A stretch of DNA of 64,000 nt from an uncultured Gammaproteobacteria bacterium (GCA_964625535.1 CAZVEX010000005.1:3477-67476); one strand, 5' to 3'; positions 1-16,952 are shown, counted from the first letter of the stretch. The notes: generated by a model from the sequence alone, not told the origin. Program-made: numbers and translations.

Positions 1-1990
1 ACACCCCATCACCAACTTGTGTTATATCAACAATATTCCATACGACTTCTTTTTTTGACTTCCATGGATCTTCGGTAATAATCTTCTTGGAAATGGTTAC
101 CAATTTTGATCTTAAAACTATATTCCAAAGATTTGTAATAAAACTATCCTTTTGTTGATCATCAGACAAAGAATTATAGTAATCCTTTGTTTTTTGGTTA
201 TCGAGAAAACCCGCTACAAAAGACCAGGAAGATGGAGTATCAGACAAAAATATAGCGACGAGATTAGTGACAGCTTGACCTAGCTGCGCTGGATCATTTA
301 GCTGATTTAGGTTTGAGATACCGCTTGGGAGTATTTCTTCTATTAGAGCTTTAGAAGTCCCTTGAATATCTTTTACTAAATTGGGGTCTGCGGTAATATA
401 CCTATCAAGAAAATCTTCACTTAAGACACCTCTATCCGAAGCACCTGCAAATCCAGAATAATAGAAGAAATTGTCGGGTGAATAATCCAAAGAAAACCTG
501 TCGTTATGGAAAGTTGGCTTAGTTTTTACCAGTTCAAAGAAAAGCGGAGCATTACTCCCAAGCTTTTTATTCATTAGGTTACTTTCCTCACCCGGAGAGT
601 TGCGTAATTGTTCTCTTTCCAATATTGCATAACGTGCTGGTTGCAGAGAATATTCCCTAAATGCTGAGTCGAACTTTTCTTGGATTAATAATACTTTAAC
701 CAACAAATCTGGATGCTCTTTCACTTCTTCCAAATTTTTTTTCAAATTGGAATTATTCTCTTCTTGTGATAAACTTTCCAACCTTGATTTGATAGTCTTC
801 AGGGAAAACAGCAGTAACTCAGTAAATCTATCTACTTCTCTTGGATTTCTATCAAGAAAGCTTATCATCAAGGTTTGTATTTGAGACTTTTGATTATCTT
901 CCAACTCTTCCAGTCGCTCTAAGTTTTTTTCCACTAAAGTCTTCATATAAATTCTATCTGTCGGTGGCACCCTCCAATAAACGTTAAACAACTTCTTGAG
1001 AAATCTCCTACCCTCTAATTCTTCTTCTATCTCGGTTTTTTCTTTATCTATTTCACCTGATTCATCTTTATAAACTAATCTCACATTTAACTGTTTACCA
1101 AGATATCTTTCAATAACTGTATGATCTCCAGTAACTACATAACTTACTTTAGGGTTCCTGAAAAAAGTTTTAAGAGAATCCAGAACAATTTTCACCCCTT
1201 CTGGGGTACAACGATCTAGGTCGTCAACGAAAACTACAACCTTTTTAAAATCATTAAGAATTTTATCAAATAATTCCTCAAACTCATCAACAGAGGTTAC
1301 TTTTATTTGAGAACGCTGTATTTTAATAAATTCTGGGAGCAAAGATAATACACCAAATAAAGATAATATAGCGGCTAAGATTGGGTGACCACTAATAAAT
1401 TTTATTATTTGTTCAGCAATATGTTTAAAAAATTGAAATATATTTATTTCACCAGTGGTAAATATTTTATAAACTGCCAAAAATAACAGAATATCCAAAA
1501 CTATCAAAATAAATAGGACGGCCATATGTTTATTAATTGAAGTCCTGGATTCATCAAATTTAAGGCGGTCTAAGAATCCCAGATTTGAAAAATAGAACTT
1601 GACTCTTCTCAAAATGTTTCTATAAGAGTTAAGAAATGAATTAAGATTATTTAGAAAGGTTCTGCGGAGCGTTTCGGCATTTTCAGTATATTGCCAAGGC
1701 CTAAACCAAATTACAGGGATGCAATTTTGTAACAGCTTTGGTTCTATCCTCTCAAGAAGATCTGTTTTACCTTCTCCCCATTTACCAGAAATAGCAAAAA
1801 TATAGCTATCTTCAAGAACTCCTAGGTTTTTTATTATTTCATCAGCTACATTTTGTGCATGTAGTTCCCTGTCTAAATAGTCTTTCTTTAATTGAAGTTC
1901 TTTATTCCAAGAACCGAGGATTAAATTCTGGCAACCTATAAGCATTTTTTTGCTCCAATAAAACATTCGTTGGGAAAATTTGTTTTTCAT
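1..1990 (-). CDS. KAP-family P-loop NTPase, 5' part (gene runs off window start; >660 aa)
   Basis: Not in ORF track (open at window edge). Reverse-strand translation from ATG at 1988-1990 is stop-free to position 1. Walker A 'AISGKWGEGKTDLL' (KAP GxWGxGKT type) and Walker B 'VVVFVDDLDRC'. ATGA start/stop overlap with hsdM stop. Confidence 0.6.
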   Translation of the reverse strand, partial: MKNKFSQRMFYWSKKMLIGCQNLILGSWNKELQLKKDYLDRELHAQNVADEIIKNLGVLEDSYIFAISGKWGEGKTDLLERIEPKLLQNCIPVIWFRPWQYTENAETLRRTFLNNLNSFLNSYRNILRRVKFYFSNLGFLDRLKFDESRTSINKHMAVLFILIVLDILLFLAVYKIFTTGEINIFQFFKHIAEQIIKFISGHPILAAILSLFGVLSLLPEFIKIQRSQIKVTSVDEFEELFDKILNDFKKVVVFVDDLDRCTPEGVKIVLDSLKTFFRNPKVSYVVTGDHTVIERYLGKQLNVRLVYKDESGEIDKEKTEIEEELEGRRFLKKLFNVYWRVPPTDRIYMKTLVEKNLERLEELEDNQKSQIQTLMISFLDRNPREVDRFTELLLFSLKTIKSRLESLSQEENNSNLKKNLEEVKEHPDLLVKVLLIQEKFDSAFREYSLQPARYAILEREQLRNSPGEESNLMNKKLGSNAPLFFELVKTKPTFHNDRFSLDYSPDNFFYYSGFAGASDRGVLSEDFLDRYITADPNLVKDIQGTSKALIEEILPSGISNLNQLNDPAQLGQAVTNLVAIFLSDTPSSWSFVAGFLDNQKTKDYYNSLSDDQQKDSFITNLWNIVLRSKLVTISKKIITEDPWKSKKEVVWNIVDITQVGDGV

Positions 1991-3522
1991 TCTCTTTTAC
2001 CTCCTAAGTATTTCTTTATTATATTTTTTTGACTTTCTAGTTCGATATCTAATTTAGTAAGTTCTTCCAAAATCTCCTTTGGGTCTCTGTGATTTTCCTC
2101 GTTTCCAGATCCTGCCGGTTTATAAGCACTGGCGGAGAGGATATAGTCATTTTCCTCTATGATCTTCCGATCTGCCCACCAGTCCTTCTCTGAGGCTTCG
2201 GACTGCGAAGCAGCATTTTTCTTTATTTCTTCCCAGCGCTCCAGAAGATGTGGCAAATCATTTTTATCCGGCTGGGGCCTTCTTTGAGTACCTTTAGAGT
2301 ACCCATCATTTTCTACCTCATAAAACCAAACTTTTTCTGTTGGTTTTCCGGTATTTTTGAATATTAAAAAGCTGGTTTTTACTCCGGCATAGGGATTAAA
2401 AACTCCCTGCGGCAAAGATACAACTGCCTGCAACTGCGTTTTATCCAAAATATATTTTCTAATTGCCATACTTGCTTTATTTCTTCCAAAAAGCACCCCT
2501 TCATTTACAATTACCCCGCAAGTTCCATTTGGTTTTAGCGCGTCAACCATTAAGCCTAAAAACAATACTGTCGAATCTTTTGCTTGAATTGGCAGTATTT
2601 GACGCAGTCTTTCAAGCGCAATATCTTTACTGGAAAATGGGGGATTGGCTAAAACAACATCAAAACTCATTGTTTCAAACGGGTCAGATACGCCGGCCAG
2701 TGAATCTCTTCTATAAACATGACTTGCATCCAGCCCATGTAAAACCATGTTCATTAGAGCAATTTTGGAAATATCAGGGGAAACATCAAAACCGTAAAAT
2801 GTATCTTTTTGCAGTTTATCCCAATCTGCCTCAGATAAATTATCGCCGTGTCCTTTAAGGTATTTAGATCCATTTTCGGCTGTTGCCTCTGCCGGTTTTT
2901 CTGAATTATTAGCTTTGATATGCTCATATGCGGCGATTAAAAATCCTGCTGTTCCGCAAGCCGGATCAAGAATAGTTTGGCCTATTTTGGGATCGACAAG
3001 TTGAACAATAGTCCGGATGATGTGACGCGGCGTTCTAAATTGGCCGTTTCTTCCCGATGTTGCCAGCTTCCCGACTAAATGCTCATAAGCGTCTCCTTTA
3101 ATGTCTGTATCTATTTGCGAAAAGTTTATGGGGCTTATTAAATCCACAACTTCACGAAGAGTGATCGCATCCGGAATCATGAAACGAACATCTCTAAAAA
3201 AACGTTTTACGTCTTCGTGGTCTTGAAGTCCTACCATAAAGACTAATACCTCATCACGAACGAATTTAAACATCTCCTCATTGTTAGGAATTTGGGACCA
3301 GGTTGAGAAACGGAATTTCTCATTATCCCCGAGAAAAATAGAATTAAATTTTTTATCGGAGATTTTTGACGCCTGCACCTTATCATCATCCCATTCCTCA
3401 AGCATTTTAAGAAAAAATAAAAAGCTAATTTGTTCTATATAACTGACAGGATTTGTCACTCCCGCGCCATTAAATTTATTAGCCAATTTATCTACAATAT
3501 TTAGAAATTCCTGTTTTGTCAT
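1987..3522 (-). CDS. hsdM: Type I restriction-modification N6-adenine DNA methyltransferase subunit (HsdM)
   Basis: 511 aa. AdoMet motif I 'LDPACGTAGFL', motif IV 'NPPF', HsdM_N-like N-terminus. Translationally coupled to hsdR upstream. Confidence 0.85.
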   Translation of the reverse strand: MTKQEFLNIVDKLANKFNGAGVTNPVSYIEQISFLFFLKMLEEWDDDKVQASKISDKKFNSIFLGDNEKFRFSTWSQIPNNEEMFKFVRDEVLVFMVGLQDHEDVKRFFRDVRFMIPDAITLREVVDLISPINFSQIDTDIKGDAYEHLVGKLATSGRNGQFRTPRHIIRTIVQLVDPKIGQTILDPACGTAGFLIAAYEHIKANNSEKPAEATAENGSKYLKGHGDNLSEADWDKLQKDTFYGFDVSPDISKIALMNMVLHGLDASHVYRRDSLAGVSDPFETMSFDVVLANPPFSSKDIALERLRQILPIQAKDSTVLFLGLMVDALKPNGTCGVIVNEGVLFGRNKASMAIRKYILDKTQLQAVVSLPQGVFNPYAGVKTSFLIFKNTGKPTEKVWFYEVENDGYSKGTQRRPQPDKNDLPHLLERWEEIKKNAASQSEASEKDWWADRKIIEENDYILSASAYKPAGSGNEENHRDPKEILEELTKLDIELESQKNIIKKYLGGKRE

Positions 3523-5747
3523 ATCAGTACGGTTTGATTCATCTCATCTAAGGCATTTTTTAAGCCCTGCTCGCCAAAAAGGGCAACTGCTTTTTGTATT
3601 CCGCCCTGTTCCCGAAGCGGGGGTTTGGTAAAATCTTCTGCCGTAACCTCTATATCTCCTGCCACAAATCTATTTTTAAGTTGTGATAAAAGCATTATTT
3701 GTTCAATGCTAAAATCTTTTTGTCTAAGCCATGAATCAAAATTTTTATTTACTCTTTCTTTTTTGGTGGGAAAAGTATATCTGCCTAAAGCTGCTTTAAT
3801 AAAATCAGCCAGTGATCCTGAAGGCTGATTGTATGCTTCTTTTAAGTTGTCTTCATTAAAGTAATCTTTAGGGCTATTTAATTTATCTGCTAATTTTTCT
3901 AACTCTTCTTGCTCCAGCTCTTTATCAGATAGGATTTTTTGAACCGTTTGATCCTCCTCCATTTTTTCTATAGTTTTCTCAAACTTTTGTGTATAGTTTT
4001 GGCGGTCTACAGCCATTCCTTCCGGGCCAATATAAATCATCTGCCTGCTTTGCATTTCATCAGACAGCTCATGTTCTTTAACTACTATAAATTCTTTTTT
4101 GTGCTTTGCTTCTTCCTCCTCAATTTTTTGAGCAAGTTCTCTTGGAAGAGCTTTTTCTCCGGGGACGGCATTTTCCAGCATCGGATCATTAAAACGCTCT
4201 GCATTTCCCACAAAATCATAAATTAAAAATGACTCCTTATTTATGCTTTTGTCTTTTCTTGAACCTCTGCCCCGCATTTGCTGGTATAAAACTACCGAAG
4301 CGGTCGGGCGCATCATTACTAAATTCTCAATGCTTGGCGCGTCAATACCGGTATCAAGCATGCCAACTGAAATTAAACAAACCGGAAATTGCTGTTTTTT
4401 AAAATCTTTTAGAATTTGTCCCGGGTTTGGAGTATCGGAAGTTATAACCTGGGCAAAGTTCCCCCGATACTCTGAAAAAACTTCATCAAAAAACCTTTTG
4501 AGCTGGGCGGCATGATTCTTGGTAACTGCAAAAAGAAGAGTTTTTCTAAGATGATCGCCTTTGCGTTGTTTTTCCATTTCTGCAAACTCCTGCACCATCA
4601 GCTTATTTCTGGATTCAATGGTAATAGTTCGCTCAAGCTCCGAGGGTTTATAGTCTACGCCATCGTAATGCACACCTTCTACCGTAATCCTGGATTTTGC
4701 TAGGTAAATTTGATAACTAGCTAGCCAGCCATCTTTTATAGCCTCTACTATACCATAGGCAAATGTAGGTTCCCCACTTTTGGTAGCATGATTCCAGCAT
4801 TTGTAAAATTCATAAGTGTTTCTGACTAATCTTTTTTCCTTCTCATTAACAAACTCATAGTGACCTAAATTTGGAGTGGCAGTCATGCCTATTTGCAGAG
4901 CGTCAAAGTGATTTAGTAAATCTCGGTAAACATTATAAATTGAGCGGTGACACTCATCAGTCACCACCAGATCAAAATGACCCGGACCAAAACGCTCAAG
5001 TTGGGAAGCAATAGTAGGCAGGGTTCCGATAACAATTTGGCCTAATTCTTTTGGCTTGCCCCCATACCAAACCTTTGAGGGTGTATCTTTTAAATACTCT
5101 GCAAAAACATCCTTTGCTTGTTCGGCAAGTTGCTTGCGGTCAACCAGAAACAAAACTCTTTGAATTAAACCTGCCTCAAATAAGCGCTTCATAGTCATGG
5201 CTATGGTAAGTGTTTTACCGGTGCCGGTTGCCATTTCAATTAAAATTCTTCTCTTGCCATTTTCTATAGCCTTATCTACAGCTTCCATGGCTTCATTTTG
5301 ATAAGGTCTAACTGTTATTTCTTCATTTAGGTAATTAAATTTAGACGGAAATTGTATTTGACTTAGAGGCTTGGTATTTTTTTGAAGGGTATTTCTTCTT
5401 TGCAAATCTTCTCTTGAGTAAAATGAATCTACAAGTCTGGCCGCGTCGTTTTTATAATCCCAAAAATATATAATTTCTCCATTGGAGAGAAAAATATAAG
5501 GAGCACTAATAGACTCTGCGTATTCTTTTGCTTGCTGTTGAGCTAAATTGGGTTCTATTGAAAATCTTTTTGCTTCAATAACTGCCAAAGGGCGGCCTTG
5601 ACTGTCTTTTAATAAATAGTCTGCTCTACCATCGGCGGCTGCTTCTTCTGTTGAGACTTGAGTTTTATCTTCAATATCCCAACCGGCTTCACGAAGAAGC
5701 CTATCTATAACTATACGGGCGTCTGTCTCTGGTCTTTTATCACTCAT
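3519..5747 (-). CDS. hsdR: Type I restriction enzyme R subunit (HsdR-like, short form, EcoEI-R-type C-terminus)
   Basis: 742 aa. N-terminal 'ETDARIVIDRLLREAGW' HsdR_N nuclease-fold motif, helicase motif I 'MATGTGKT', motif II 'DECHRS', motif VI 'QMRGRGSR', EcoEI_R_C-like tail. Confidence 0.8.
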   Translation of the reverse strand: MSDKRPETDARIVIDRLLREAGWDIEDKTQVSTEEAAADGRADYLLKDSQGRPLAVIEAKRFSIEPNLAQQQAKEYAESISAPYIFLSNGEIIYFWDYKNDAARLVDSFYSREDLQRRNTLQKNTKPLSQIQFPSKFNYLNEEITVRPYQNEAMEAVDKAIENGKRRILIEMATGTGKTLTIAMTMKRLFEAGLIQRVLFLVDRKQLAEQAKDVFAEYLKDTPSKVWYGGKPKELGQIVIGTLPTIASQLERFGPGHFDLVVTDECHRSIYNVYRDLLNHFDALQIGMTATPNLGHYEFVNEKEKRLVRNTYEFYKCWNHATKSGEPTFAYGIVEAIKDGWLASYQIYLAKSRITVEGVHYDGVDYKPSELERTITIESRNKLMVQEFAEMEKQRKGDHLRKTLLFAVTKNHAAQLKRFFDEVFSEYRGNFAQVITSDTPNPGQILKDFKKQQFPVCLISVGMLDTGIDAPSIENLVMMRPTASVVLYQQMRGRGSRKDKSINKESFLIYDFVGNAERFNDPMLENAVPGEKALPRELAQKIEEEEAKHKKEFIVVKEHELSDEMQSRQMIYIGPEGMAVDRQNYTQKFEKTIEKMEEDQTVQKILSDKELEQEELEKLADKLNSPKDYFNEDNLKEAYNQPSGSLADFIKAALGRYTFPTKKERVNKNFDSWLRQKDFSIEQIMLLSQLKNRFVAGDIEVTAEDFTKPPLREQGGIQKAVALFGEQGLKNALDEMNQTVLI

Positions 5748-5768
5748 ATTTTCTTCCCATATTAAACC

Positions 5769-7178
5769 ATGCTTCGATTCCTCAGCACAAGTACCTCAGA
5801 GGAGTTGATAAGAAATAACATTCCTTGTACCATACTTCCAGTGACTAAAAATTTTGCCGTTTTAAAATATTGTTTAATGCTTTTTTTGGGCTGGAGAATG
5901 GCTTTGCTTTTTATTGCCTATTTTGGCCTGTCCACCTTTCCCAGCCGCAACGGGCTGACAGATGAACTTTTTTTGCCCTCTGGGGATATTAGCTACTGGT
6001 TTCGCTGGTCCAACTGGGACGGGGGGCATTTCCGGGGGATTGCCGAAAACGGCTATTTGCCAGATCAAACCGTCTTTTTTCCCTTATACCCGCTGTTGAT
6101 TAAAATCTTAAACTTGACTGGTTTTGATGCCACTTGGGCCGGCCTGGCGATTTCTCATATATCTTTGATTTTTGCTTTATTTTTCCTTTATAAACTTACT
6201 GCTTTGGATTTTACAGAAGCGGTGGCCCGCCGGAGTGTTTTTGCCCTTTTGATTTTCCCCACTTCTTTTTATTTGGGAACTCTGTATTCTGAAAGCCTAT
6301 TTTTGGCCAGCACCCTGGCTGCTTTTTACTATCTCCGGACCAACAGAGCTCAACTGGGGGGAATGTTTGCTGCCGCCTCGGTGGCTACCAGACTGGCAGG
6401 GGTAGCTAGCTTTGCCGGTTTGCTGGGAGAGCGTCTGTTAAAACAAGGTGAAAATTTTAGTATTTCTCTACTTTGGAAAACCAAATTAAGACGATGGCTT
6501 TTGTGTTTGATGGCTTTATCTATTATCCTAAAATTGATTACAAAATTTACTCTTTTTTTAAAGTTCCTTTTAGTGCAGGGTTTGCTAAATTACCTATTCC
6601 AAATCACTACTTCAGCAATCCTTTTTACCTTGGTTCTGGTAGTGCTAGAATTTCTCCTTAAAAATGTCCATTTAAAAAAACTGTTCTCCTTAAAAACCTT
6701 GATCATTACCCTATCTCTTTTACCTATTCCTTTATATATGTTTTACCAGCAAGTTCTTTTTCAAAATCCTTTTGGATTTTTGACTAACGAGAGCGGGTGG
6801 AATAGACATTTTTCCCTGCCCTGGGAGCCGGTTTTAGGGTATTTAAATTATTTACAGTCAGTGGGTATTTTCCGGATAGGCAATTCAGCCGGGGTTTTGA
6901 CAGAACTGATCTTTTTTATGGGCGGCCTGGTGGGGTTAATCTTCTCCCTTTACAAATTAAGGCCGGCTTATTCTCTCTTTTATGCCTTGTCTTTAATTTT
7001 GCCTGCTTTTTCCGGCACCTTGATTGCCATGCCCAGATATATGCTGACTATTTTCCCTATTTTTATACTTTTGGGGCTGATTGAAAACGAAATCTTACAA
7101 AAAATAGGCATTATTTTTTCCCTGCTTTTGCTTTCCGCCTACACCATGCTTTTCATGGGCTGGTACTGGGTAAGTTAG
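5769..7178 (+). CDS. Integral membrane glycosyltransferase-like protein (GT-C fold; PIG-V/mannosyltransferase-like)
   Basis: 469 aa, more than 10 predicted TM helices. 'WSNWDGGHF..IAENGY' and 'FFPLYPLL' motifs resemble PIG-V/GT-C mannosyltransferases. True start codon uncertain. Confidence 0.45.
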   Translation: MLRFLSTSTSEELIRNNIPCTILPVTKNFAVLKYCLMLFLGWRMALLFIAYFGLSTFPSRNGLTDELFLPSGDISYWFRWSNWDGGHFRGIAENGYLPDQTVFFPLYPLLIKILNLTGFDATWAGLAISHISLIFALFFLYKLTALDFTEAVARRSVFALLIFPTSFYLGTLYSESLFLASTLAAFYYLRTNRAQLGGMFAAASVATRLAGVASFAGLLGERLLKQGENFSISLLWKTKLRRWLLCLMALSIILKLITKFTLFLKFLLVQGLLNYLFQITTSAILFTLVLVVLEFLLKNVHLKKLFSLKTLIITLSLLPIPLYMFYQQVLFQNPFGFLTNESGWNRHFSLPWEPVLGYLNYLQSVGIFRIGNSAGVLTELIFFMGGLVGLIFSLYKLRPAYSLFYALSLILPAFSGTLIAMPRYMLTIFPIFILLGLIENEILQKIGIIFSLLLLSAYTMLFMGWYWVS

Positions 7179-7183: not shown

Positions 7184-8182
7184 ATGATAATATTGGGAAT
7201 TGAAACTACCTGTGACGAGACAGGGGCTGCTGTCTTGCAGCAAAAAAATGACAGGATACAAATTTTATCTAATGTGGTGGCATCTTCTGCCTCTTTGCAA
7301 GCCAAATATGGCGGGATAATTCCCGAGCAGGCAGCCAGGGAACAAATAAAAAGTATTATTCCAGTTATTCAAGAAGCAATTGAAAATTGTAAATTAAAAA
7401 TTGAAAATTTAGACGCTATTAGCGTCTCTCATGGTCCGGGATTGATTGGATCGCTCCTGGTGGGAGTGGAAACAGCCAAAACTTTGGCCTTAGTATGGAA
7501 TAAACCCCTTATACCGGTTAATCATTTAATCGGACATTTTTATGCAAATTGGATTGGTCGATCTTCGCCCAAATTCCCCTGTATTGGTCTTCTGGTTTCC
7601 GGTGGCCACACTGATTTAGTTTTGTTCCAAAATCATGGTAAATATAAATATTTAGGAGGAACCCGGGATGATGCGGCAGGGGAATGTTTTGACAAATGCG
7701 CCCGGCTTTTGCGTTTGCCTTACCCGGGTGGGCCGGAAATTAGCAAATTAGCTGAAAAAGGATCTGATATTTATAAATTACCAAGGCCAATGATGGATTC
7801 GGGGGACTTTGATTTTTCCTTTTCCGGATTAAAAACTGCAGTAGCTAATCTCATTCAGAATTCAGAATTCAGAATTCAGAATTTGGCTGCGAGTATTGAA
7901 GCTGCTATTGTTGATGTTTTAGTTGCAAAAACTATCCTGGCTGGCCAAAAATATCAAGTTGAACAAATTATGGTGGCAGGCGGCGTTGCAGCAAATCAGA
8001 AACTAGTTTGTGAATTGAAATTGAAAATTGAAAATTTAAAATTGAAAATTACATTGCATGTGCCGTCTGCACATTTATGTACCGACAATGCTGCCATGAT
8101 TGCTGCCGCGGCATTTTTTATAGAACCAATTTCTGACCCTTTGAAACTCCAAGCCGATCCCAGTCTTGCGCTCAAGTATTAA
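7184..8182 (+). CDS. tsaD: tRNA N6-adenosine threonylcarbamoyltransferase TsaD (Kae1/Gcp)
   Basis: N-terminus 'MIILGIETTCDETGAAVL', 'SGG' and 'HxxGH' motifs. Contains in-frame short tandem repeats (separate features). Confidence 0.9.
   Translation: MIILGIETTCDETGAAVLQQKNDRIQILSNVVASSASLQAKYGGIIPEQAAREQIKSIIPVIQEAIENCKLKIENLDAISVSHGPGLIGSLLVGVETAKTLALVWNKPLIPVNHLIGHFYANWIGRSSPKFPCIGLLVSGGHTDLVLFQNHGKYKYLGGTRDDAAGECFDKCARLLRLPYPGGPEISKLAEKGSDIYKLPRPMMDSGDFDFSFSGLKTAVANLIQNSEFRIQNLAASIEAAIVDVLVAKTILAGQKYQVEQIMVAGGVAANQKLVCELKLKIENLKLKITLHVPSAHLCTDNAAMIAAAAFFIEPISDPLKLQADPSLALKY
7855..7877. repeat. Tandem heptamer repeat (AGAATTC/CAGAATT x3.3) inside tsaD
   Basis: 'tcagaattcagaattcagaattt'. Same repeat family as at 38480-38520. 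Confidence 0.8.
8010..8050. repeat. AT-rich short repeat 'AATTGAAAATT' tandem copies inside tsaD
   Basis: 'aattgaaattgaaaattgaaaatttaaaattgaaaatt'. Related copies at 7381-7410, 40958-40985 and 41394-41440. Confidence 0.75.
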
Positions 8183-8203
8183 AGCCAATATACTTAACCC
8201 CAT

Positions 8204-10312
8204 ATGGACAAACAGTATAATCATCAGGGAGTTGAAGAAAAATGGTACAAGTTTTGGGAGGAACAGGGCCTTTTTAAGGCCGAGCCCCAATCAAGCAAAA
8301 AACCATATTCCCTTCTTGTTCCCCCACCCAATTTAACAGGAGAGCTGCATTTGGGCCACGCCATGCAACATTCCATTATGGACGCCATTGCCCGCTTTAA
8401 AAGAATGCAAGGATATGACGTTCTGCTCCTCCCCGGAGTTGACCATGCCGGTATTGCCTTTGAAAGTACGTTAGATAAAATTCTTACCAAAGAAGGGTTA
8501 TTCAAACAAAAACTTGGCCGAGATAAATGGTTAGAACGAGCGTGGAAATTTAAGACGCAAGTTTATCAATCATTTCATCGCACATGGACAGTTTTTGGAT
8601 TATCGGCCGACTGGTCAAAAGAAGTTTTTACACTTGAGCCCAAGGTGCAAAAGGCGGTTTTTGCCCAGTTTCAAGCTTTCTGGGATCAAGATCTACTTTA
8701 TAAAGGCGCCTATATTGTCCAGTGGTGCCCTAAATGCAACACAGCGATTGAAGACATTGAGATGGAATATGACGAGCGAAAAGAAAAATTGTATTTTCTC
8801 AAATATGGTCCCCTCACTCTCGCCACGGCCAGGCCCGAAACAAAATTCGGTGACACGGCCATGGCAGTTAACCCAAAGGATAAAAGATACAAAGATTACG
8901 TCGGCAAAGAATTTGAAATAGAAACACTGGCGGGCAAGAAAAAAATGAGGGTGGTGGCTGATGAGGCAGTGGATCCCAAATTCGGCACCGGGGTGATCAA
9001 GGTGACACCGGGTCATGATTTTACCGATTATGAAATCGGCAAGCGCCATAATCTGCCAATTCTGCAAGCGATTGATAAAAACGGCAAGCTGACGGATTTG
9101 GCCGGAAAATATGCCGGTATGAAAGTTTACGAAGCAAGGGAGGCCATGCTGCCGGAGCTTAAGAAAAAAGGGGTTTTAGTAAAAGAAGAAGATTATACTC
9201 ATTCGGTGGCAGTTTGCGAAAGATGTAAAAGTGTCGTTGAACCCTTAATTTCCGAGGAATGGTTTGTCAAAATGGCGCCTTTGGCCCAAAAAGCTTTGAA
9301 AAATATCAAAAAAGTTAATTTTGTGCCCAAAAATTATTTAAAAATTTTAACGACTTGGATTAAAAATATTCACGACTGGTCAATTTCCCGTTCTCTTTGG
9401 TGGGGACATCGCATCCCTGTCTGGTATTGCCAAAAATGCAATCCTCATCATTTAGTAGGTAAGGATAAAGATATGGTAGTTTCAATGGATGAACCGGGTA
9501 AAAATTGCCAGACTTGCGGGCAAAAACATTGGGTCCAGGACCAACAAGTTCTGGATACCTGGTTTTCTTCAGGTATGTGGCCTTTATCTACTTTAGGCTG
9601 GCCTAATGAAACTAAAGAGCTTAAAAAATATTATCCCTGGGATTTTGAAACCTCTGCTCCGGAAATCAAATTTTTATGGATTGCCAGAATGATCATGTTG
9701 GGACTCTGGTTTGCCAGTGACATTCCTTTTAAAAATATGTTTTTCCATGGCATGTTACGGGATTTGCAAGGCAGAAAATTTTCCAAATCCCTGGGTAACG
9801 GCATTGATCCCAATGAATTGAGAAATCAATGGGGTACTGATGCCACCCGCATGGCTTTATACACTTATGCCATTCCTGGACGGGACGGCCGGGCCTCCCG
9901 GGAGACCATGGATGAGCGGTGTAAAAACTTCCGCAATTTTGCCACCAAGCTGTGGAACATCACCAGATTTATCTTAGCCTCGCAAGGCCCGACCTTGCGA
10001 ACTAAAAATGCCGATGATCAATGGATCAAGGATGAGCTTAATAAAACCATTAAATCTGTTACCAATAATCTGGAGGGATTTAAACTGCATCTGGCCAGCG
10101 AAGCTTTATATGATTTTATTTGGCACAAATTTGCAGATCAATATATTGAAAAATCAAAAACCCGCCGAGCCGAAGCTCAATCCACTTTAGAATATATTTT
10201 CAAAACCAGCCTGGAACTCTTGCATCCCTTTATGCCTTTTATTACAGAGGAATTATGGCAACACCTACCTCATCAGGGAAAATCAATTATGACTGCCAAA
10301 TGGCCTTCTTAA
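8204..10312 (+). CDS. valS: Valyl-tRNA synthetase (short form lacking C-terminal coiled-coil)
   Basis: 'PPPNLTGELHLGHA' (ValRS HIGH region) and 'KFSKSLGN' (KMSKS). 702 aa. Confidence 0.85.
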   Translation: MDKQYNHQGVEEKWYKFWEEQGLFKAEPQSSKKPYSLLVPPPNLTGELHLGHAMQHSIMDAIARFKRMQGYDVLLLPGVDHAGIAFESTLDKILTKEGLFKQKLGRDKWLERAWKFKTQVYQSFHRTWTVFGLSADWSKEVFTLEPKVQKAVFAQFQAFWDQDLLYKGAYIVQWCPKCNTAIEDIEMEYDERKEKLYFLKYGPLTLATARPETKFGDTAMAVNPKDKRYKDYVGKEFEIETLAGKKKMRVVADEAVDPKFGTGVIKVTPGHDFTDYEIGKRHNLPILQAIDKNGKLTDLAGKYAGMKVYEAREAMLPELKKKGVLVKEEDYTHSVAVCERCKSVVEPLISEEWFVKMAPLAQKALKNIKKVNFVPKNYLKILTTWIKNIHDWSISRSLWWGHRIPVWYCQKCNPHHLVGKDKDMVVSMDEPGKNCQTCGQKHWVQDQQVLDTWFSSGMWPLSTLGWPNETKELKKYYPWDFETSAPEIKFLWIARMIMLGLWFASDIPFKNMFFHGMLRDLQGRKFSKSLGNGIDPNELRNQWGTDATRMALYTYAIPGRDGRASRETMDERCKNFRNFATKLWNITRFILASQGPTLRTKNADDQWIKDELNKTIKSVTNNLEGFKLHLASEALYDFIWHKFADQYIEKSKTRRAEAQSTLEYIFKTSLELLHPFMPFITEELWQHLPHQGKSIMTAKWPS

Positions 10313-10344
10313 GCAACTGACTTGCCAAAATTGAAAGGTTAAGT

Positions 10345-10686
10345 ATGATTTCTAAAGAAATATTAGGGGTATTGGAAGATATAGCGGCTATACTACATAC
10401 TGGATCAACAGCAATGCCAAGCGGAGCTTATTATGTTTACGGGAAAGATGTACAAGAACAGCTAGTCCTAGTAAGAGCCAGACAAGAAACACCTACTGTA
10501 GCGATTCTTCAAGCGGAAATAGCATCCAGAGGAGGAACCAGAGCAACCCTGCAACTGCTAAATCCCACAATTAGAAGGATAGAGCGACCAGGAGATAATT
10601 GGATAAGAATATTCGGGGCTGAAGGTACTTTTTTAATAAGCCCCCAGTTGGGAGCACATATTTCTCACGGCCCACAGGGTTTATAA
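10345..10686 (+). CDS. Hypothetical protein
   Basis: 113-aa ORF in an intergenic position; no recognisable motif. Confidence 0.3.
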   Translation: MISKEILGVLEDIAAILHTGSTAMPSGAYYVYGKDVQEQLVLVRARQETPTVAILQAEIASRGGTRATLQLLNPTIRRIERPGDNWIRIFGAEGTFLISPQLGAHISHGPQGL

Positions 10687-10739
10687 TTTAAAAACAGGCA
10701 CGAATTCCCGCAAAATCACCGCAAATTAACCGCTTGGAA

Positions 10740-11486
10740 TTATTCTTTTGGGGGTTCTTTAGCTTCCTCTTGAGGCTGTTCAGCTTCAGTAGTAGCTTCG
10801 CCCTCTTCGCCCGCCGCAGCTTCAGCGGAGGCGGGTTCGGCCTCTCCTTCGGCCGGCGCAGCCTCTGCTTGAGCTTCTGCAGCTTCGGCAGCCTCCTCCT
10901 CCAGCAACTTCTCCATTTCTGCAGAAACAGCCGGAGCCAGTTTAACCACAATCTCCTCCAGGTCAGCGTGTATGGTCAATTTTTCCCTGTCAAATTCAAG
11001 TTGCCCCAAAGTTATAGCATCGTTAATTTCTTTAAGTAAACTTTGGTCAACTTCAATTTTTTCTATTAGATCCGCCGGTAGAGCTTCCACCTCCACTTCA
11101 TTTAAGGTTTGAAGAACTATAGCCTCCCCAAGGTGAACTTTTTCCGGCTCCTCCCCAATCAGTTCTATAGGAACAGGCACTTTCACCTTCTGGGATAAAT
11201 TAACCTGATAAAAATCAATATGCAAAGGGCTTCCTGAAATGGGGTCGTATTGCACTCCACGCACCAGCACAGGTCTTATTTTTTCCGCTCCGATCTTTAA
11301 ATCAATTAAACCGGTCTCCCCTGCTTCTTTAAAAGTTTTTAAGAAAGTTTTTCCGTCTACCGAAACATGCTCTGTTCCCAAGCCCTTACCAAAAACATGA
11401 GCCGGGAGTTTACCGCCCCGCCTTAAGTTCTTGACCTTTTTGCCTAAAATTTTTCGCTCTTCAGCAAGCAAACTTAATCTGTCCAT
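10740..11486 (-). CDS. rplY: 50S ribosomal protein L25 (bL25/Ctc form) with acidic Ala/Glu-rich C-terminal tail
   Basis: 'MDRLSLLAEERKILGKKVKNLRRGGKLPAHVFGKG' is a typical L25 N-terminus. The C-terminal ~55 aa is a low-complexity E/A tail. Confidence 0.85.
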   Translation of the reverse strand: MDRLSLLAEERKILGKKVKNLRRGGKLPAHVFGKGLGTEHVSVDGKTFLKTFKEAGETGLIDLKIGAEKIRPVLVRGVQYDPISGSPLHIDFYQVNLSQKVKVPVPIELIGEEPEKVHLGEAIVLQTLNEVEVEALPADLIEKIEVDQSLLKEINDAITLGQLEFDREKLTIHADLEEIVVKLAPAVSAEMEKLLEEEAAEAAEAQAEAAPAEGEAEPASAEAAAGEEGEATTEAEQPQEEAKEPPKE

Positions 11487-11545
11487 GGCTAGTTAATGTA
11501 CCACAAAATTCTCTCCCAAGCAAGCCCAAAAACTTAGCCCGTGGA

Positions 11546-12388
11546 TCAGGCCAGCCCCAAAATCACTACTCCCAGAAGAAGAATAACGGCGCCGGATAAA
11601 ACTTGCATCACCTGTTTTCTTTGAGTAATTTCCTTAAAATAATAAAGTCCCCATAAAACTGCAATCAATATTGCAGACTGACTAACAGGACCCATCTTTG
11701 ATAAACCAATCATAGAAAGCGAGATCAGCGACAGTAAATTACCAATATTCCAAATAAACCCACTTGATAAACTTTCTTTGATGGCCTCATTTTTAAATTT
11801 CACTCTCATTGCTTGTGAGATCAAAATACCTGTAATAAATATTCCCGCGCAAACAGGAAAGAAAAAATCCCGTGTAGCCACATTGCCAACTTTGATGGGT
11901 ACTAACTGGCTACCAAATATTAAACCAGCCACAATCCCTGCCAGCAGCCCTTTTTTAACATTTTGGCTGTGAGTATTACCAGTAGTACTGACTAAAATTA
12001 CTCCTAGCACTATCAGTCCTATCCCGAAAAACCCCATTGTTATGCCAGTAGGTAATTCACCAAACACTAATGCTCCCCATAAAAATGAAGATAGGATGAC
12101 AAGAGATGCTAAAAGCGGGGCCGCTCTCGAAAGCCCCAGATTTAATATAGCAACTAAGGATATGGCATTTGCGCTTGCCCATAAAACTCCGCTTAATAGG
12201 CCATACATATTTAATGTCAGAGAATAACCTAAAATCAAAGAGATCAAGAGCCCTGAAAGTCCTATTCCCACCGCCATTAAGGCCTGAAACTGAAGCAGGT
12301 TTTGAGATTTGGATATTTTAAAGGGGACCATATATGATCCCCAAAATAAAGCTGCCCCCAATGCTGCTAAAAAACCTAAATTTTCCAT
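11546..12388 (-). CDS. GRP-family (GlcU-like) sugar uptake membrane protein
   Basis: 280 aa, about 10 TM helices. N-terminal 'ALFWGSYMVPFK' is typical of the glucose/ribose porter family. Confidence 0.5.
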   Translation of the reverse strand: MENLGFLAALGAALFWGSYMVPFKISKSQNLLQFQALMAVGIGLSGLLISLILGYSLTLNMYGLLSGVLWASANAISLVAILNLGLSRAAPLLASLVILSSFLWGALVFGELPTGITMGFFGIGLIVLGVILVSTTGNTHSQNVKKGLLAGIVAGLIFGSQLVPIKVGNVATRDFFFPVCAGIFITGILISQAMRVKFKNEAIKESLSSGFIWNIGNLLSLISLSMIGLSKMGPVSQSAILIAVLWGLYYFKEITQRKQVMQVLSGAVILLLGVVILGLA

Positions 12389-15273: not shown

Positions 15274-15324
15274 GCGTAAATCGTAGCACTAAAATCAGGT
15301 AATGCAAGAGAGAGGAATGGTATC

Positions 15325-15735
15325 TTAATAGATCCTGTCTAAGGCTTCATTGGCCAGTTGGTCGGCCCGGAAATTTTCCGATCTTGGCACATGAGAAAAG
15401 GTAACTCCGCAAAGTTCCAGAGATAAAATTTTAATTTGTTGAAATATTGGCTTTAGGTGTTTAGCCTTAATTTTAAAATTCCCTGAAAGCTGCTCTGCCA
15501 CCAGCTTGGAATCGGCAAAAAGTTCTGTCGTCTCTATCTCTTCGCTCAAGTTGTCCTTGACATACTGCAAAGCTTTTAAAACAGCTGTGTATTCGGCCAC
15601 ATTATTGGTTGTTACTCCTATGTATTTACCCTCCTGGTGGATAAGTTTTCCACTTTTTTCGGAAATAGTAAAGCCGTAAGAGGCTTTTCCGGGATTACCG
15701 CGCGAAGCTCCATCTGTGTAAATAATCAATTTCAT
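15325..15735 (-). CDS. rnhA: Ribonuclease HI
   Basis: 'MKLIIYTDGASRGNPG' RNase H1 signature. Start placed at the internal Met (the track ORF extends to 15798 into the upstream gene). Confidence 0.85.
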   Translation of the reverse strand: MKLIIYTDGASRGNPGKASYGFTISEKSGKLIHQEGKYIGVTTNNVAEYTAVLKALQYVKDNLSEEIETTELFADSKLVAEQLSGNFKIKAKHLKPIFQQIKILSLELCGVTFSHVPRSENFRADQLANEALDRIY

Positions 15736-16952
15736 TTCCTTAAGAGTATGGCTGCTTGCAGCCCCAAAATCAAGTATTCGGAAATTCCCGTAATCCAAGA
15801 AGCTGCCACATATGAATATCGGGGAATAAAAATAAAATTTAAAGCGATGTTTGTTACTAACCCCAAGCTGTAAATCAAAAGCATTTTTTTATACATTTTC
15901 TTGGCCACCATCATCCACATGAGCAGAGCGGATAAAAAATAGGCGGGTAAACCCAGGGAAAGAATCTGCAGGGAGGTCGCAGAACCCGCAAATCCCGTAC
16001 CTGTAATTAATTTAATTATGAGGGGTGATAAGTAGTAAATAACCAGTAGTATGGAAAAGGATAAAAACAAAAGTCCCAAAGCTGCCATTTTGATTTGATA
16101 ACCAAAACGGTCAATATTGTTTTTTAAGGTTTGGAGCATCATGGGATAAAAAGAGTTCATAATGAAGGTAGGTAGTACCAAAATAGACTGAAACACTTGA
16201 TAAGCCACATTATAAATACCAACTTCAGCTGAACCTTTGTAAAAGGAGATTATAAAAGCGTCAGCCCTAAAATAGATAACATTTAAAAATAGCGTTGCTG
16301 CCAGAGGAAAGCTACCTTGAAATAAAGCCACCAGATATTTTTTGCTAAAAATGGGGGAGAGTTGTTTAATAATTCTTCTGACCAGAAGTAGCAGAAGGCC
16401 GGTATAAATAAGCCATGACAAAACATAACCAACAGTCAATAAATACACAGGCGCGCGGGCGCTTGACAAATAAAAAATCAATAAAACTCCGGCCGGAGCG
16501 GACAGAAAAACAGGCCAGGTAGAATATTCATATTTTAGATTAACTTGAATTAATGCTTGAGCGCAGAAAAACAGGCTATTTAGAAAAATCGTTAACACAC
16601 CAACTAAAACAGCTAATTTAAAATCCACTAGACCGGGCGCAAAAACAAGTGGTAACACGGCTGCCAGAATTGTTAAAAATGCTCCCCAGAGAATTCTAAT
16701 TCCTAATAATTTTCTCCATTCTAAAGAGAAGTTCGACTCCTGAAGTCTTCTTAAAATATAACCGTTAAAACCGAAATCAGCTAAAACATAAAAGAAGGCT
16801 AAATAAGTCAGTGCTAAAGTAAAATCTCCTAAACCTGCTTCACCGTAATTTCTCGAAACTATCCCTAAAATAACAAATCCGCCTGAAGTGGTAACTACCT
16901 TAAAAACAGCCTGCCAAAAAGTCTGCTGGAAGATTTTTTTAACCTTTTGCAC
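15732..16952 (-). CDS. Polysaccharide biosynthesis protein / oligosaccharide flippase (Wzx-like, MOP superfamily)
   Basis: 406 aa, about 12 TM helices. N-terminal 'VTTSGGFVILGIVSRNYGEAGLGDFTLALTYLAFF' is typical of the Wzx/PST family. Confidence 0.7.
   Translation of the reverse strand: MQKVKKIFQQTFWQAVFKVVTTSGGFVILGIVSRNYGEAGLGDFTLALTYLAFFYVLADFGFNGYILRRLQESNFSLEWRKLLGIRILWGAFLTILAAVLPLVFAPGLVDFKLAVLVGVLTIFLNSLFFCAQALIQVNLKYEYSTWPVFLSAPAGVLLIFYLSSARAPVYLLTVGYVLSWLIYTGLLLLLVRRIIKQLSPIFSKKYLVALFQGSFPLAATLFLNVIYFRADAFIISFYKGSAEVGIYNVAYQVFQSILVLPTFIMNSFYPMMLQTLKNNIDRFGYQIKMAALGLLFLSFSILLVIYYLSPLIIKLITGTGFAGSATSLQILSLGLPAYFLSALLMWMMVAKKMYKKMLLIYSLGLVTNIALNFIFIPRYSYVAASWITGISEYLILGLQAAILLRK

What the first reader, a model, noticed from the sequence alone, without database searches (positions are those of the whole stretch)
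1..5747. hsdR-hsdM followed by a KAP-family NTPase instead of hsdS
Type I systems need a specificity subunit. Here hsdM is translationally coupled (ATGA) to a >660-aa KAP P-loop NTPase, and no HsdS-like TRD gene is present in the 6 kb. KAP NTPases are recurrent components of defence islands. This may be a composite defence module or an R-M system whose hsdS lies upstream, beyond the window.
Basis: partly seen in the sequence, partly recalled or inferred. Interest (0 to 1): 0.55.

Follow-up and report, generated by a model that had tools for sequence, protein, structure and literature searches.

The report
Type I restriction operon carrying passenger genes
This is a complete type I restriction-modification operon whose specificity gene lies just beyond the window edge, behind three unrelated passenger genes (one a membrane KAP ATPase), an arrangement already known as "embedded" defence genes; the short repeated copies of the specificity gene's start that bound the passengers were not found described in the literature I searched.

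Summary
On the minus strand hsdR (3519-5747) overlaps hsdM (1987-3522) by ATGA, and hsdM overlaps a KAP P-loop NTPase that runs off the window start. No HsdS gene lies anywhere in the 64 kb.

The reading "KAP instead of hsdS" is wrong. The source contig (Candidatus Daviesbacteria MAG, JACPUM010000003.1) continues hsdR-hsdM-KAP(811 aa)-orf178-orf200-hsdS. An intact two-TRD hsdS starts about 1.7 kb beyond the window start.

The three inserted genes are independent passengers. Their homologues elsewhere do not travel together, and the closest KAP homologues stand alone. In 10 of 11 other distinct close-relative operons from metagenomes, hsdM and hsdS are also separated by 1.4-2.8 kb of different, defence-island-type cargo (DUF3800, OLD-family ATPase, UvrD-like helicase, ImmA/IrrE+DUF4411, HEPN).

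Genes embedded in type I R-M systems are already described (PrrC, TgvAB, Payne et al. 2024).

One feature looks new. Cargo units are bounded by direct repeats that copy the first 8-12 codons of hsdS. Each cargo type keeps the same left junction in different genomes. This points to cassette stacking by recombination at the hsdS 5' end. All of that evidence lies outside the window.

The parts
3519..5747 (-). hsdR: type I restriction subunit of the EcoAI/EcoEI (type IB-like) family, 742 aa. Nuclease motif D43...E58-x-K60 at window 5565-5621, helicase motif I MATGTGKT at 5211-5234, DECH at 4944-4958.
   Evidence: Pfam HSDR_N/ResIII/Helicase_C/EcoEI_R_C. NCBIfam restrict_EcoAI 285 bits, below its 550 cut-off. 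PADLOC REase_I 2e-75. Motif positions.
1987..3522 (-). hsdM: N6-adenine methyltransferase subunit, 511 aa. Motif I DPACGTAGF at 2941-2967, NPPF at 2635-2646. Its start overlaps the hsdR stop (ATGA, 3519-3522).
   Evidence: Pfam HsdM_N + N6_Mtase. PADLOC MTase_I 4.9e-140. Junction sequence.
1..1990 (-). First 663 of 811 codons of an embedded KAP-family P-loop NTPase. Walker A GKWGEGKT at 1763-1786, two hydrophobic (transmembrane) segments at 1445-1543 and 1319-1408, Walker B VVFVDDLDRC at 1208-1237. Its start overlaps the hsdM stop (ATGA, 1987-1990). The gene ends 446 nt beyond the window start (L001 13968).

The rest of the operon is off-window, given in L001 coordinates (window x = 13523 - L001 position):
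- hsdS-5' remnant 13965-14003
- orf178 14008-14544
- hsdS-5' remnant 14554-14580
- orf200 14577-15179
- hsdS 15190-16311
- terminator hairpin 16318-16366
- hsdS-3' remnant 16385-16484
   Evidence: Pfam KAP_NTPase 97.6 bits. Hydropathy and motif positions. Full gene and downstream genes on the source contig. Repeats. Hairpin.
5748..5840 (.). Short intergenic region between hsdR and the divergently transcribed membrane-protein gene. Presumed location of the operon promoter; no promoter is shown.
   Evidence: Gene calls on the source contig (L001 6345-7682 minus, 7776-10004 plus). The sigma-70 consensus scan was no better than shuffles, so the promoter is inferred only from position.

Best explanation
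The region is the 5' two-thirds of one complete, apparently intact type I (EcoAI/EcoEI-like) restriction-modification operon of a Candidatus Daviesbacteria (CPR/Patescibacteria) genome. The gene order is hsdR-hsdM-[KAP NTPase, orf178, orf200]-hsdS-terminator. HsdS is present, so the R2M2S1 enzyme can form in the ordinary way.

The three genes between hsdM and hsdS are passengers embedded in a cargo slot typical of this lineage of operons. They are unrelated to one another in distribution and are most likely independent single-gene accessory or defence functions:
- KAP is a membrane-anchored P-loop NTPase of the PifA/QatA kind. It probably acts as an abortive-infection-type sensor or effector (inferred).
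- orf178 is a small protein with a PD-(D/E)xK nuclease fold.
- orf200 is a widespread protein of unknown fold with an invariant RNxxxH motif. It recurs next to R-M methyltransferase or specificity genes.

Cargo units are separated by short direct repeats that are copies of the first 8-12 codons of hsdS. Each addition therefore left a truncated hsdS start behind and kept an intact one in front of hsdS. ATGA or near-abutting junctions keep every reading frame translationally linked down to hsdS.

Shown: gene content, order, intactness, the repeats, the variability of the slot, and sharing of cargo units between loci. Inferred: that the cargo is defensive, that it acts independently of the R-M enzyme, and that the repeats are the recombination substrate by which cargo is gained and lost.
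For: Operon completeness:
- HsdS has two TRD matches and conserved central and 3' regions shared with relatives at 80-93% nt identity.
- A strong hairpin plus U-run follows the hsdS stop directly (dG -23.2, z -4.2).

Independence of the passengers:
- All 7 distinct close KAP homologue loci (33-76% identity) lack hsdM, hsdS, orf178 and orf200 nearby.
- orf178 homologues (64-90% identity) and orf200 homologues (61-89% identity) occur without each other and without KAP.

The slot is variable:
- Of 12 distinct operons that show both the hsdM end and the hsdS start (this one plus 11 relatives, HsdM 49-78% identical), 11 have cargo between hsdM and hsdS. The gap is 3.7 kb here and 1.4-2.8 kb in the ten relatives, and the cargo differs from locus to locus.
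- Cargo includes DUF3644, PIG-L, DUF3800 (twice), HEPN-like (twice), a UvrD-like helicase, Peptidase_M78 + DUF4411, an AAA_15/OLD-TOPRIM ATPase and DUF2321.
- More distant relatives (32-37% identity) have hsdS directly after hsdM.

The repeats:
- TGGCCGGTGAAAAAATTA occurs 3 times in L001, with 0 expected from shuffles.
- The copies read MKNSWPVKKLGE*, MNWPVKKL* and the true start MKTSWPVKKLGEV.
- Similar remnants sit inside the slot in L104, L105, L108, L110, L113, L114 and L119.

Shared junctions:
- The orf178 unit, including both flanking remnants, is 91% nt-identical over 613 bp between L001 and L093-L097, with the same left junction.
- The orf200 unit has the same left breakpoint (after AAAAAATTA) in L001 and in an unrelated genome, L129, where it also sits directly before hsdS.

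KAP features: Walker A and B with two hydrophobic segments between them. Weak PifA, QatA and PDC-S20 hits.

orf178 fold: pLDDT 90, and the Foldseek hits are predominantly PD-(D/E)xK nucleases.

Precedent: embedded genes in type I R-M systems are documented.
Against: - No expression, methylation or phage data exist. The genome is a metagenome-assembled genome.
- Function of all three passengers is inferred. KAP similarity to PifA and QatA is far below family thresholds (QatA 58 bits against a 600 cut-off).
- The orf178 structural matches are weak (E about 3e-3, TM 0.35-0.40).
- orf200 has no structural or family match at all.
- Tight translational coupling of KAP to hsdM, and the recurrence of orf200 next to R-M genes (3 of 6 distinct contexts), could instead mean a functional tie to the R-M enzyme.
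- Repeat breakpoints differ between cargo types (position about 17 to about 45 of hsdS). This argues against a precise site-specific recombinase and leaves the insertion mechanism open.
- A 3.65-kb insert between hsdM and hsdS might reduce HsdS expression. That cannot be judged from sequence.
Confidence: 0.8

Rival explanations
1. One reading: a composite module in which the KAP NTPase replaces the specificity subunit, so that HsdR/HsdM work with KAP rather than HsdS.
For: Within the window hsdM is followed by KAP with an ATGA overlap, and no hsdS is present.
Against: An intact hsdS follows in the same operon 3.65 kb after hsdM. None of the other close-relative operons carries a KAP. The closest KAP homologues are not next to hsd genes.
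Confidence: 0.03
2. A guardian model of the PrrC type. One or more of the embedded proteins (KAP, the orf178 nuclease-fold protein, orf200) is held inactive by the type I enzyme. It is released as a suicide effector when a phage anti-restriction protein disables the enzyme.
For: - The position inside the operon and unbroken translational coupling.
- Precedent of PrrC inside EcoprrI and of R-M guardians.
- orf200 homologues lie directly before hsdS in L129/L130 and overlap the stop of a 961-aa N6_Mtase/MmeI-type gene in L131. That is 3 of 6 distinct contexts next to R-M genes.
- orf200 has an invariant RNxxxH, the form of the HEPN RNase motif.
Against: - No PrrC or other guardian model matched.
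- KAP and orf178 homologues are mostly found away from R-M genes.
- The orf200 model found no HEPN or any other fold match.
- Other loci carry quite different cargo in the same slot. This fits a permissive insertion site better than a co-adapted partner.
Confidence: 0.15
3. The slot is an integron-like cassette platform. The conserved 5' end of hsdS serves as an attachment site at which promoter-less cargo genes are captured, stacked and exchanged between operons, by homologous or short-homology recombination (pop-out or pop-in of circles, or transformation). This is compatible with the best explanation and adds a specific mechanism to it.
For: - Direct repeats of the hsdS start bound the cargo units in L001 and in at least seven relatives.
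- Each cargo type keeps its own left junction across loci: orf178 in L001 and L093, orf200 in L001 and L129, the about 200-aa TM protein in L105 and L119.
- The remnant sequence variant matches the local hsdS variant: CCGGTG/CCAGTG in L001, CCAACA in L129.
- Cargo is shared between type I slots and a repeat-bounded array without detectable hsd genes, L093.
- A remnant of a different hsdS 3' end lies after the terminator, showing allele replacement.
Against: - No recombinase is encoded in the operon.
- Homology is only about 25-40 bp.
- Breakpoints vary between cargo types.
- The sample is small (about 15 distinct loci, all metagenomic and mostly CPR).
- The repeats could be passive scars of rare illegitimate insertions followed by vertical descent and ordinary recombination between operons.
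- The exact-match scan of IMG/VR for the repeat found nothing, so no mobile vector is identified.
Confidence: 0.4
4. A decaying operon. The insertions are neutral or deleterious junk (selfish hitch-hikers) that have uncoupled hsdS from hsdM, leaving a poorly functional R-M system.
For: - Lower G+C of KAP (0.337), orf200 (0.325) and hsdS (0.329) than of hsdR/hsdM (0.385-0.388) suggests foreign origin.
- Remnants and a 3' hsdS fragment are scars.
- Payne et al. discuss a 'genomic sink' origin of embedding.
Against: - All six reading frames are intact with catalytic motifs.
- Junctions retain ATGA or near-abutting starts.
- An identical operon was recovered from a second data set, L002.
- orf178 and orf200 are highly conserved across phyla (60-90% identity), which implies purifying selection.
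Confidence: 0.1

Closest known systems
Genes embedded within type I R-M (and BREX/DISARM/Hma) operons: 'guilt-by-embedding', Payne et al. 2024 (bioRxiv 10.1101/2024.01.29.577857)
   Same: Unrelated accessory or defence genes sit between the core genes of one type I R-M system, in the same orientation. The cargo is drawn from a very diverse pool, including ATPases and nucleases.
   Different: In the text searches I ran, that paper does not mention hsdS or KAP and gives no insertion mechanism; it cites only the 'genomic sink' idea. Here the cargo lies specifically between hsdM and hsdS, is bounded by repeats of the hsdS start, and the host is a CPR bacterium.
PrrC in the EcoprrI type IC locus (and RloC / rlo genes of Campylobacter hsd loci)
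   Same: An NTPase-containing accessory gene is embedded in a type I R-M operon (rlo genes cited via ref. 66 of PMC11411939).
   Different: PrrC is an ABC-type ATPase fused to an anticodon nuclease, is almost always found embedded, and is regulated by the R-M enzyme. The KAP here is a different P-loop class with transmembrane segments, did not match PrrC models, and its closest homologues are stand-alone.
TgvAB (GmrSD-like type IV system) embedded in the Vibrio cholerae VPI-2 type I R-M cluster (PMC11411939)
   Same: Independent defence genes interrupt a functional type I R-M operon. The R-M system still methylates and restricts.
   Different: The cargo is different (DUF262/DUF1524 proteins). 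No hsdS-start repeats are reported in the passages I read.
PifA (F plasmid), QatA (Qat system) and PADLOC candidate PDC-S20: KAP-family NTPases in phage defence
   Same: KAP P-loop domain. Weak HMM similarity: PifA 4.4e-15, QatA 2e-14, PDC-S20 1e-12.
   Different: Scores are far below family cut-offs (QatA 58 bits against 600). None of the five other genes of this operon matched a Qat, Pif or any other non-R-M PADLOC model. The C-terminal 400 residues are unrelated to anything found.
Integron cassette arrays / integrative elements that carry a copy of the target gene end
   Same: Promoter-less genes are stacked in one orientation behind a fixed upstream operon, separated by a repeated boundary sequence. 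Insertion regenerates an intact target gene and leaves a partial duplicate.
   Different: There is no integrase and no attC-like folded site. The repeat is the coding 5' end of hsdS. Breakpoints are not at one fixed nucleotide, which favours homologous or short-homology recombination.
hsdS shuffling loci (pneumococcal ivr/tvr, epigenetic invertons)
   Same: Recombination in conserved hsdS segments and leftover partial hsdS copies.
   Different: Those systems exchange TRDs by inversion or excision with dedicated recombinases and inverted repeats. Here the repeats are direct and very short, and they bound non-hsdS genes.

Membership tests
Type I restriction-modification system | HsdR with an N-terminal PD-(D/E)xK nuclease and an SF2 helicase/translocase | tested here: met
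   Pfam HSDR_N, ResIII, Helicase_C, EcoEI_R_C. PADLOC REase_I 2e-75. D...ExK, motif I and DECH present.
Type I restriction-modification system | HsdM N6-adenine methyltransferase with an HsdM_N domain | tested here: met
   Pfam N6_Mtase 2e-57 + HsdM_N. PADLOC MTase_I 4.9e-140. DPACGTAGF and NPPF motifs.
Type I restriction-modification system | HsdS specificity subunit with two target-recognition domains, encoded with hsdM | tested here: met
   Not in the window, but on the source contig at L001 15190-16311. It has 373 aa and two Methylase_S stretches.
Type I restriction-modification system | Methylation of, and restriction at, a bipartite target sequence | not testable with these tools
   Needs a methylome or enzymology.
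Type IB (EcoAI/EcoEI) family | HsdR of the EcoAI/EcoEI type | tested here: inconclusive
   EcoEI_R_C domain E 3.4e-27. NCBIfam restrict_EcoAI is the best hit but scores 285 bits, below the 550 cut-off. This makes it a relative, not an equivalog. Complementation or antibody cross-reactivity, which formally define the families, is not testable.
KAP family P-loop NTPase (PF07693) | Match to the family model above the curated threshold, with Walker A and B | tested here: met
   97.6-97.8 bits against a cut-off of 20. GKWGEGKT and VVFVDDLDRC.
KAP family P-loop NTPase (PF07693) | Transmembrane segments inserted inside the P-loop domain. This is a feature of many members, recalled from Aravind et al. 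2004 and not re-read here. | tested here: met
   Two hydrophobic segments, residues 150-182 and 195-224, between Walker A (69-76) and Walker B (252-261).
QatABCD / PifA defence systems | Protein reaches the family model threshold and has the partner genes | tested here: not met
   QatA 58.4 bits against a cut-off of 600. PifA and QatA hits cover only parts of the NTPase domain. The other operon genes submitted to PADLOC gave only R-M models or no match, and orf178/orf200 have no Pfam family.
PrrC/RloC-type R-M guardian | ABC-type ATPase fused to an anticodon-nuclease domain, embedded in a type I locus | tested here: not met
   The embedded position is met, but no PrrC or RloC model matched any of the three proteins.
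HEPN RNase (for orf200) | Four-helix HEPN fold with a catalytic Rx4-6H motif | tested here: inconclusive
   R90-N91-x3-H95 is invariant in 39-40 sequences. There is no Pfam, PADLOC or NCBIfam HEPN hit and no structural match for a pLDDT-79 model.
PD-(D/E)xK nuclease superfamily (for orf178) | Restriction-endonuclease-like alpha-beta-beta-beta-alpha-beta core with acidic and Lys catalytic residues | tested here: inconclusive
   The model has pLDDT 90. Foldseek hits are predominantly PD-(D/E)xK nucleases but weak: E about 3e-3, TM 0.35-0.40. E38, E55 and K73 are invariant; D40 and S57 are nearly invariant; the canonical Lys position is Ser.
Integron | intI integrase, attI, and attC-bounded cassettes | tested here: not met
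   No integrase or recombinase domain was found in the operon or its immediate flanks. The boundary repeat is the hsdS coding start, not an attC-like site.

The most novel reading that the evidence does not exclude
In a lineage of CPR-bacterial type I R-M operons, the first roughly 30-40 bp of hsdS act as a recombination or attachment site. Promoter-less accessory or defence genes are captured, stacked and exchanged at that site. Each event regenerates an intact, translationally coupled hsdS and leaves a truncated hsdS start as the cassette boundary. This would be a recombinase-free, integron-like route by which defence genes become embedded in other defence systems. The KAP NTPase in the window is simply the first cassette of such an array.
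Probability: 0.4. Interest if true: 0.7.

Novelty: new variant of a known kind. Interest (0 to 1): 0.45.

Why it matters
As submitted, the finding resolves to something ordinary: a complete type I R-M operon with embedded passenger genes, a pattern already catalogued.

The added value is mechanistic. How defence genes come to be embedded inside other defence operons is an open point; Payne et al. offer only the 'genomic sink' idea. Here the boundaries are legible. Repeated copies of the hsdS start flank each cargo unit. The same cargo-plus-junction recurs in unrelated genomes. A whole family of operons uses the hsdM-hsdS junction as a variable slot.

If this generalises, three things follow:
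- It gives a simple sequence signature for finding cargo, and hence candidate new defence genes such as orf200, in type I loci.
- It identifies a testable recombination mechanism.
- It documents defence-island-like organisation in the small genomes of CPR bacteria.

Tried and rejected
1. hsdS elsewhere in the window. tblastn found none. The divergent 469-aa ORF at 5769-7178 is a multi-TM protein, not HsdS.

2. A conserved KAP-orf178-orf200 three-gene module. This was rejected. tblastn of all three proteins against 130 loci found no co-occurrence outside the source genome.

3. A recurrent KAP-type I R-M partnership. Among 80 genome loci with KAP relatives, only three remote ones (L051, L067, L070) have hsd genes within 10 kb. 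No close relative does.

4. orf200 as HEPN. The motif is present, but family scans and Foldseek gave nothing. Left open.

5. A profile search of orf200 for informative fusions gave 227 clusters, mostly stand-alone proteins of about 190-200 aa or fragments, with no informative fusion seen.

6. A KAP profile against PDB sequences gave no meaningful hit.

7. The sigma-70 promoter and terminator consensus scan over the operon gave counts equal to shuffles. Only the hairpin after hsdS, tested by folding, is significant.

8. An exact-match scan of IMG/VR for the hsdS-5' repeat gave 0 hits.

9. KAP's own ATG (ATGAAAAAC, overlapping the hsdM stop) may be the old hsdS start. This is suggestive, but the match is too short and the N-termini of homologues are too variable to test.

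The 89-90% identical homologues P0121 and P0241 were modelled instead.

11. The Campylobacter rlo paper (Miller 2005) is not held. It is cited only through PMC11411939.

Full report
**1. The observation**

The window's first 5.7 kb carry three minus-strand reading frames: 3519-5747 (742 aa), 1987-3522 (511 aa), and a frame open from 1990 to the window edge (663 codons).

Pfam assigns them as follows:
- The 742-aa protein is a type I R subunit, with HSDR_N, ResIII, Helicase_C and EcoEI_R_C.
- The 511-aa protein is HsdM, with HsdM_N plus N6_Mtase (E 2e-57).
- The third protein is a KAP-family P-loop NTPase, at 97.6 bits against a threshold of 20.

PADLOC and NCBIfam agree: REase_I 2e-75, MTase_I 4.9e-140, and best R-subunit family EcoAI/FtnUII. 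Both junctions are ATGA overlaps. No HsdS-like sequence exists in the 6 kb or anywhere in the 64-kb window.

**2. What lies beyond the window**

An exact-sequence look-up of HsdM found the source. It is contig JACPUM010000003.1 (339 kb) of assembly GCA_016192235.1, and NCBI names the KAP protein as from a Candidatus Daviesbacteria bacterium. An identical 7.5-kb contig comes from an independent run.

In that locus (L001; window position x = 13523 minus the L001 position) the operon reads:

| Gene | L001 coordinates |
|---|---|
| hsdR | 7776-10004 |
| hsdM | 10001-11536 |
| KAP (811 aa) | 11533-13968 |
| orf178 | 14008-14544 |
| orf200 | 14577-15179 |
| hsdS (373 aa) | 15190-16311 |

HsdS has two Methylase_S stretches (E 1.3e-36) and matches PADLOC Specificity_I at 1.7e-47. 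A strong hairpin followed by a U-run comes straight after its stop (dG -23.2 kcal/mol, z -4.2).

All catalytic motifs of HsdR and HsdM are present: D...ExK, motif I, DECH, DPACGTAGF and NPPF. So this is a complete type I operon. The only amendment is that two more genes lie between KAP and hsdS.

**3. The three inserted genes are independent passengers**

*KAP.* It has Walker A at residues 69-76 and Walker B at 252-261. Two hydrophobic segments (150-182, 195-224) lie between them, an arrangement I recall as typical of the family. It hits PifA, QatA and PDC-S20 models only weakly and far below family cut-offs.

Its close homologues (33-76% identity) are almost all from Patescibacteria. In the seven distinct close-homologue loci examined they stand alone, without hsd genes, orf178 or orf200. 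Of 80 genome loci with KAP relatives, only three remote ones have hsd genes within 10 kb. In one of them, L051, a distant KAP lies between hsdR and hsdM.

*orf178.* It has 91 homologues, 33-90% identical. A homologue modelled at pLDDT 90 gives Foldseek hits that are weak (E about 3e-3, TM 0.35-0.40). The informative ones are nonetheless PD-(D/E)xK nucleases: SduA, the R2 endonuclease domain, AF1548, Can2/Card1 and Avs3. E38, E55 and K73 are invariant, and D40 and S57 are nearly so.

*orf200.* It has more than 1000 homologues at 60-89% identity across phyla. These form 227 clusters at 50% identity, mostly stand-alone proteins of about 190-200 aa or fragments, with no informative fusion seen. 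It has no family or fold match. It does have an invariant R-N-x3-H.

The homologues of the three genes do not co-occur.

orf200 does recur next to R-M genes. It lies directly before hsdS in L129/L130, and it overlaps the stop of a 961-aa MmeI-type methyltransferase gene in L131. It is not R-M-linked in L088, L089 or L132.

**4. The hsdM-hsdS junction is a cargo slot in this lineage**

A metagenome scan with HsdM returned 26 loci. Twelve distinct operons show both the hsdM end and the hsdS start: this one plus 11 relatives with HsdM 49-78% identical. Eleven of the twelve have cargo between hsdM and hsdS. The gap is 3.7 kb here and 1.4-2.8 kb in the ten relatives. The cargo differs from locus to locus, and none of the relatives carries KAP, orf178 or orf200.

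Pfam identifies the following among the cargo:
- DUF3644
- a PIG-L deacetylase
- DUF3800 (twice)
- weak HEPN matches (twice)
- a UvrD-like helicase
- Peptidase_M78 plus DUF4411
- an AAA_15/OLD-TOPRIM ATPase with a partner gene
- DUF2321
- several proteins with no family

This is defence-island-type content. More distant relatives (32-37% identity) have hsdS directly after hsdM, often with the ATGA overlap. That overlap is the classical translationally coupled junction described for EcoKI (PMC3510504).

**5. Repeats of the hsdS start bound the cargo**

In L001 the KAP stop overlaps ATGAAAAATAGCTGGCCGGTGAAAAAATTAGGAGAATAA (MKNSWPVKKLGE*). orf178 is followed by ATGAACTGGCCGGTGAAAAAATTATGA (MNWPVKKL*), whose stop overlaps the orf200 ATG. 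The true hsdS begins ATGAAAACTAGTTGGCCAGTGAAAAAATTAGGAGAAGTT. The 18-mer core occurs three times in L001, with none expected from shuffles.

Comparable remnants lie inside the slot of L104 (two), L105, L108, L110, L113, L114 and L119 (two). They are either short dead-end mini-ORFs or fused in frame to the cargo protein.

Each cargo type keeps its own left junction in different loci:
- The orf178 unit, with both flanking remnants, is 91% identical over 613 bp between L001 and L093-L097, with the same GGAGAA|TAA-TTTATG junction.
- The orf200 unit breaks after AAAAAATTA both in L001 and in the unrelated genome of L129.
- The cassette encoding a transmembrane protein of about 200 aa has the same junction in L105 and L119.

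The remnant's sequence variant follows the local hsdS variant. L093 carries an array of such repeat-bounded units, one of them shared with the slot of L115. No hsd gene was detected on that 11.5-kb contig.

After the L001 terminator lies a 100-nt copy of an hsdS 3' end. It is closer to other loci's hsdS ends (78-79%) than to its own (73%). This is a scar of hsdS allele replacement.

**6. Interpretation**

The best-supported reading is an ordinary, probably functional type I R-M operon with embedded passenger genes. This pattern is already documented for PrrC in EcoprrI, TgvAB in V. cholerae, the Campylobacter rlo genes, and at scale by Payne et al. 2024.

That the passengers are defensive and act independently is inference. 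It rests on their families, their stand-alone homologues and the nature of the cargo in sister operons.

A PrrC-like guardian relation cannot be excluded, most plausibly for orf200.

The repeat structure suggests that cargo is stacked by recombination within the conserved hsdS 5' end. Integration of a unit carrying a short hsdS-start segment would give exactly what is seen: a truncated left copy at a cargo-specific position and an intact right copy.

Three points argue for homologous or short-homology recombination rather than a site-specific enzyme: the breakpoints vary between cargo types, no recombinase is encoded, and the homology is short. The mechanism remains a hypothesis. My text searches of Payne et al. 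found no statement of how embedding arises beyond the 'genomic sink' idea. The literature searches found no description of hsdS-start repeats at cargo boundaries.

**7. Verdict**

As stated, the finding is a new member of a known kind. The repeat-bounded cargo slot makes it, at most, a new variant of a known kind.

Interest is moderate at 0.45. The window itself holds only the ordinary part, and the more interesting evidence lies outside it and rests on about 15 metagenomic loci.

Noticed in passing
L001 13965-14003, 14554-14580 and 15190-15225 (beyond the window start; extrapolated window positions about -442 to -1702): There are three direct copies of the hsdS 5' end: two truncated remnants and the true start. 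They bound orf178 and orf200. The same kind of remnant recurs in the hsdM-hsdS interval of L104, L105, L108, L110, L113, L114 and L119, and before orf200 in L129.
   Followed up: partly
L001 16318-16366 and 16385-16484: A strong terminator hairpin lies right after hsdS (dG -23.2, z -4.2). It is followed by a 100-nt remnant of a different hsdS 3' end, encoding NYKKLLVKQKGLLKELFDSVLHKSMKGELDN*. The remnant is 73% identical to the resident hsdS end and 78-79% identical to those of L104/L105, which indicates a past hsdS allele replacement.
   Followed up: partly
L001 14577-15179; L129 900-1493; L131 6001-6567: The orf200 family has more than 1000 homologues and 227 clusters at 50% identity, with no Pfam family and an invariant RNxxxH. 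It is found directly before hsdS in two unrelated genomes. In a third it overlaps the stop of a 961-aa MmeI-type methyltransferase gene. NYN-domain genes are nearby in L129 and L131. It is a candidate R-M-associated accessory protein of unknown function.
   Followed up: partly
L093 1890-3320, L098 3153-4559 (and L094-L096, L102): A fusion protein of 468-476 aa combines a LexA DNA-binding domain, a Peptidase_S24 domain and an N6_N4 DNA methyltransferase. It sits next to HNH or Endonuclease_7 genes in CPR contigs that also carry orf178 homologues. This is an unusual domain combination, an SOS-cleavable methyltransferase.
   Followed up: no
L093 4369-7000: An array of same-strand small genes, each preceded by an hsdS-5'-like repeat. 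One unit (6357-6932, HEPN_RiboL-PSP-like) is shared with the hsdM-hsdS slot of L115. No hsdM, hsdR or hsdS was detected on the 11.5-kb contig. It may be a decayed type I locus or a free-standing cassette array.
   Followed up: partly
L051 784-9318: In an Anaerolineales MAG, a distantly related KAP NTPase (about 26-38% identity in segments) lies between an hsdR-like and an hsdM-like gene on the same strand. This is an independent instance of a KAP gene inside a type I locus.
   Followed up: no
L083 831-5683: The closest KAP homologue (76% identity) follows a 774-aa protein with a weak GHKL/HATPase_c_3 match and a 114-aa ORF. This could be a different two- or three-gene context for the same KAP subfamily.
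   Followed up: no
window 5769-7178 (+); gene call 5841-7178: A multi-pass membrane protein of 445-469 aa has no Pfam match. It is transcribed divergently from hsdR, with only 21-93 bp between the two starts, and is followed by tsaD and a class I aminoacyl-tRNA synthetase. It marks the boundary between housekeeping genes and the R-M operon.
   Followed up: no
window 1-5747 compared with the whole window: The operon is AT-richer than its surroundings. G+C is 0.385-0.388 for hsdR and hsdM, 0.337 for KAP, 0.325 for orf200 and 0.329 for hsdS, against a window mean of 0.42. This is consistent with horizontal acquisition, with the cargo and hsdS more foreign than hsdR and hsdM.
   Followed up: partly
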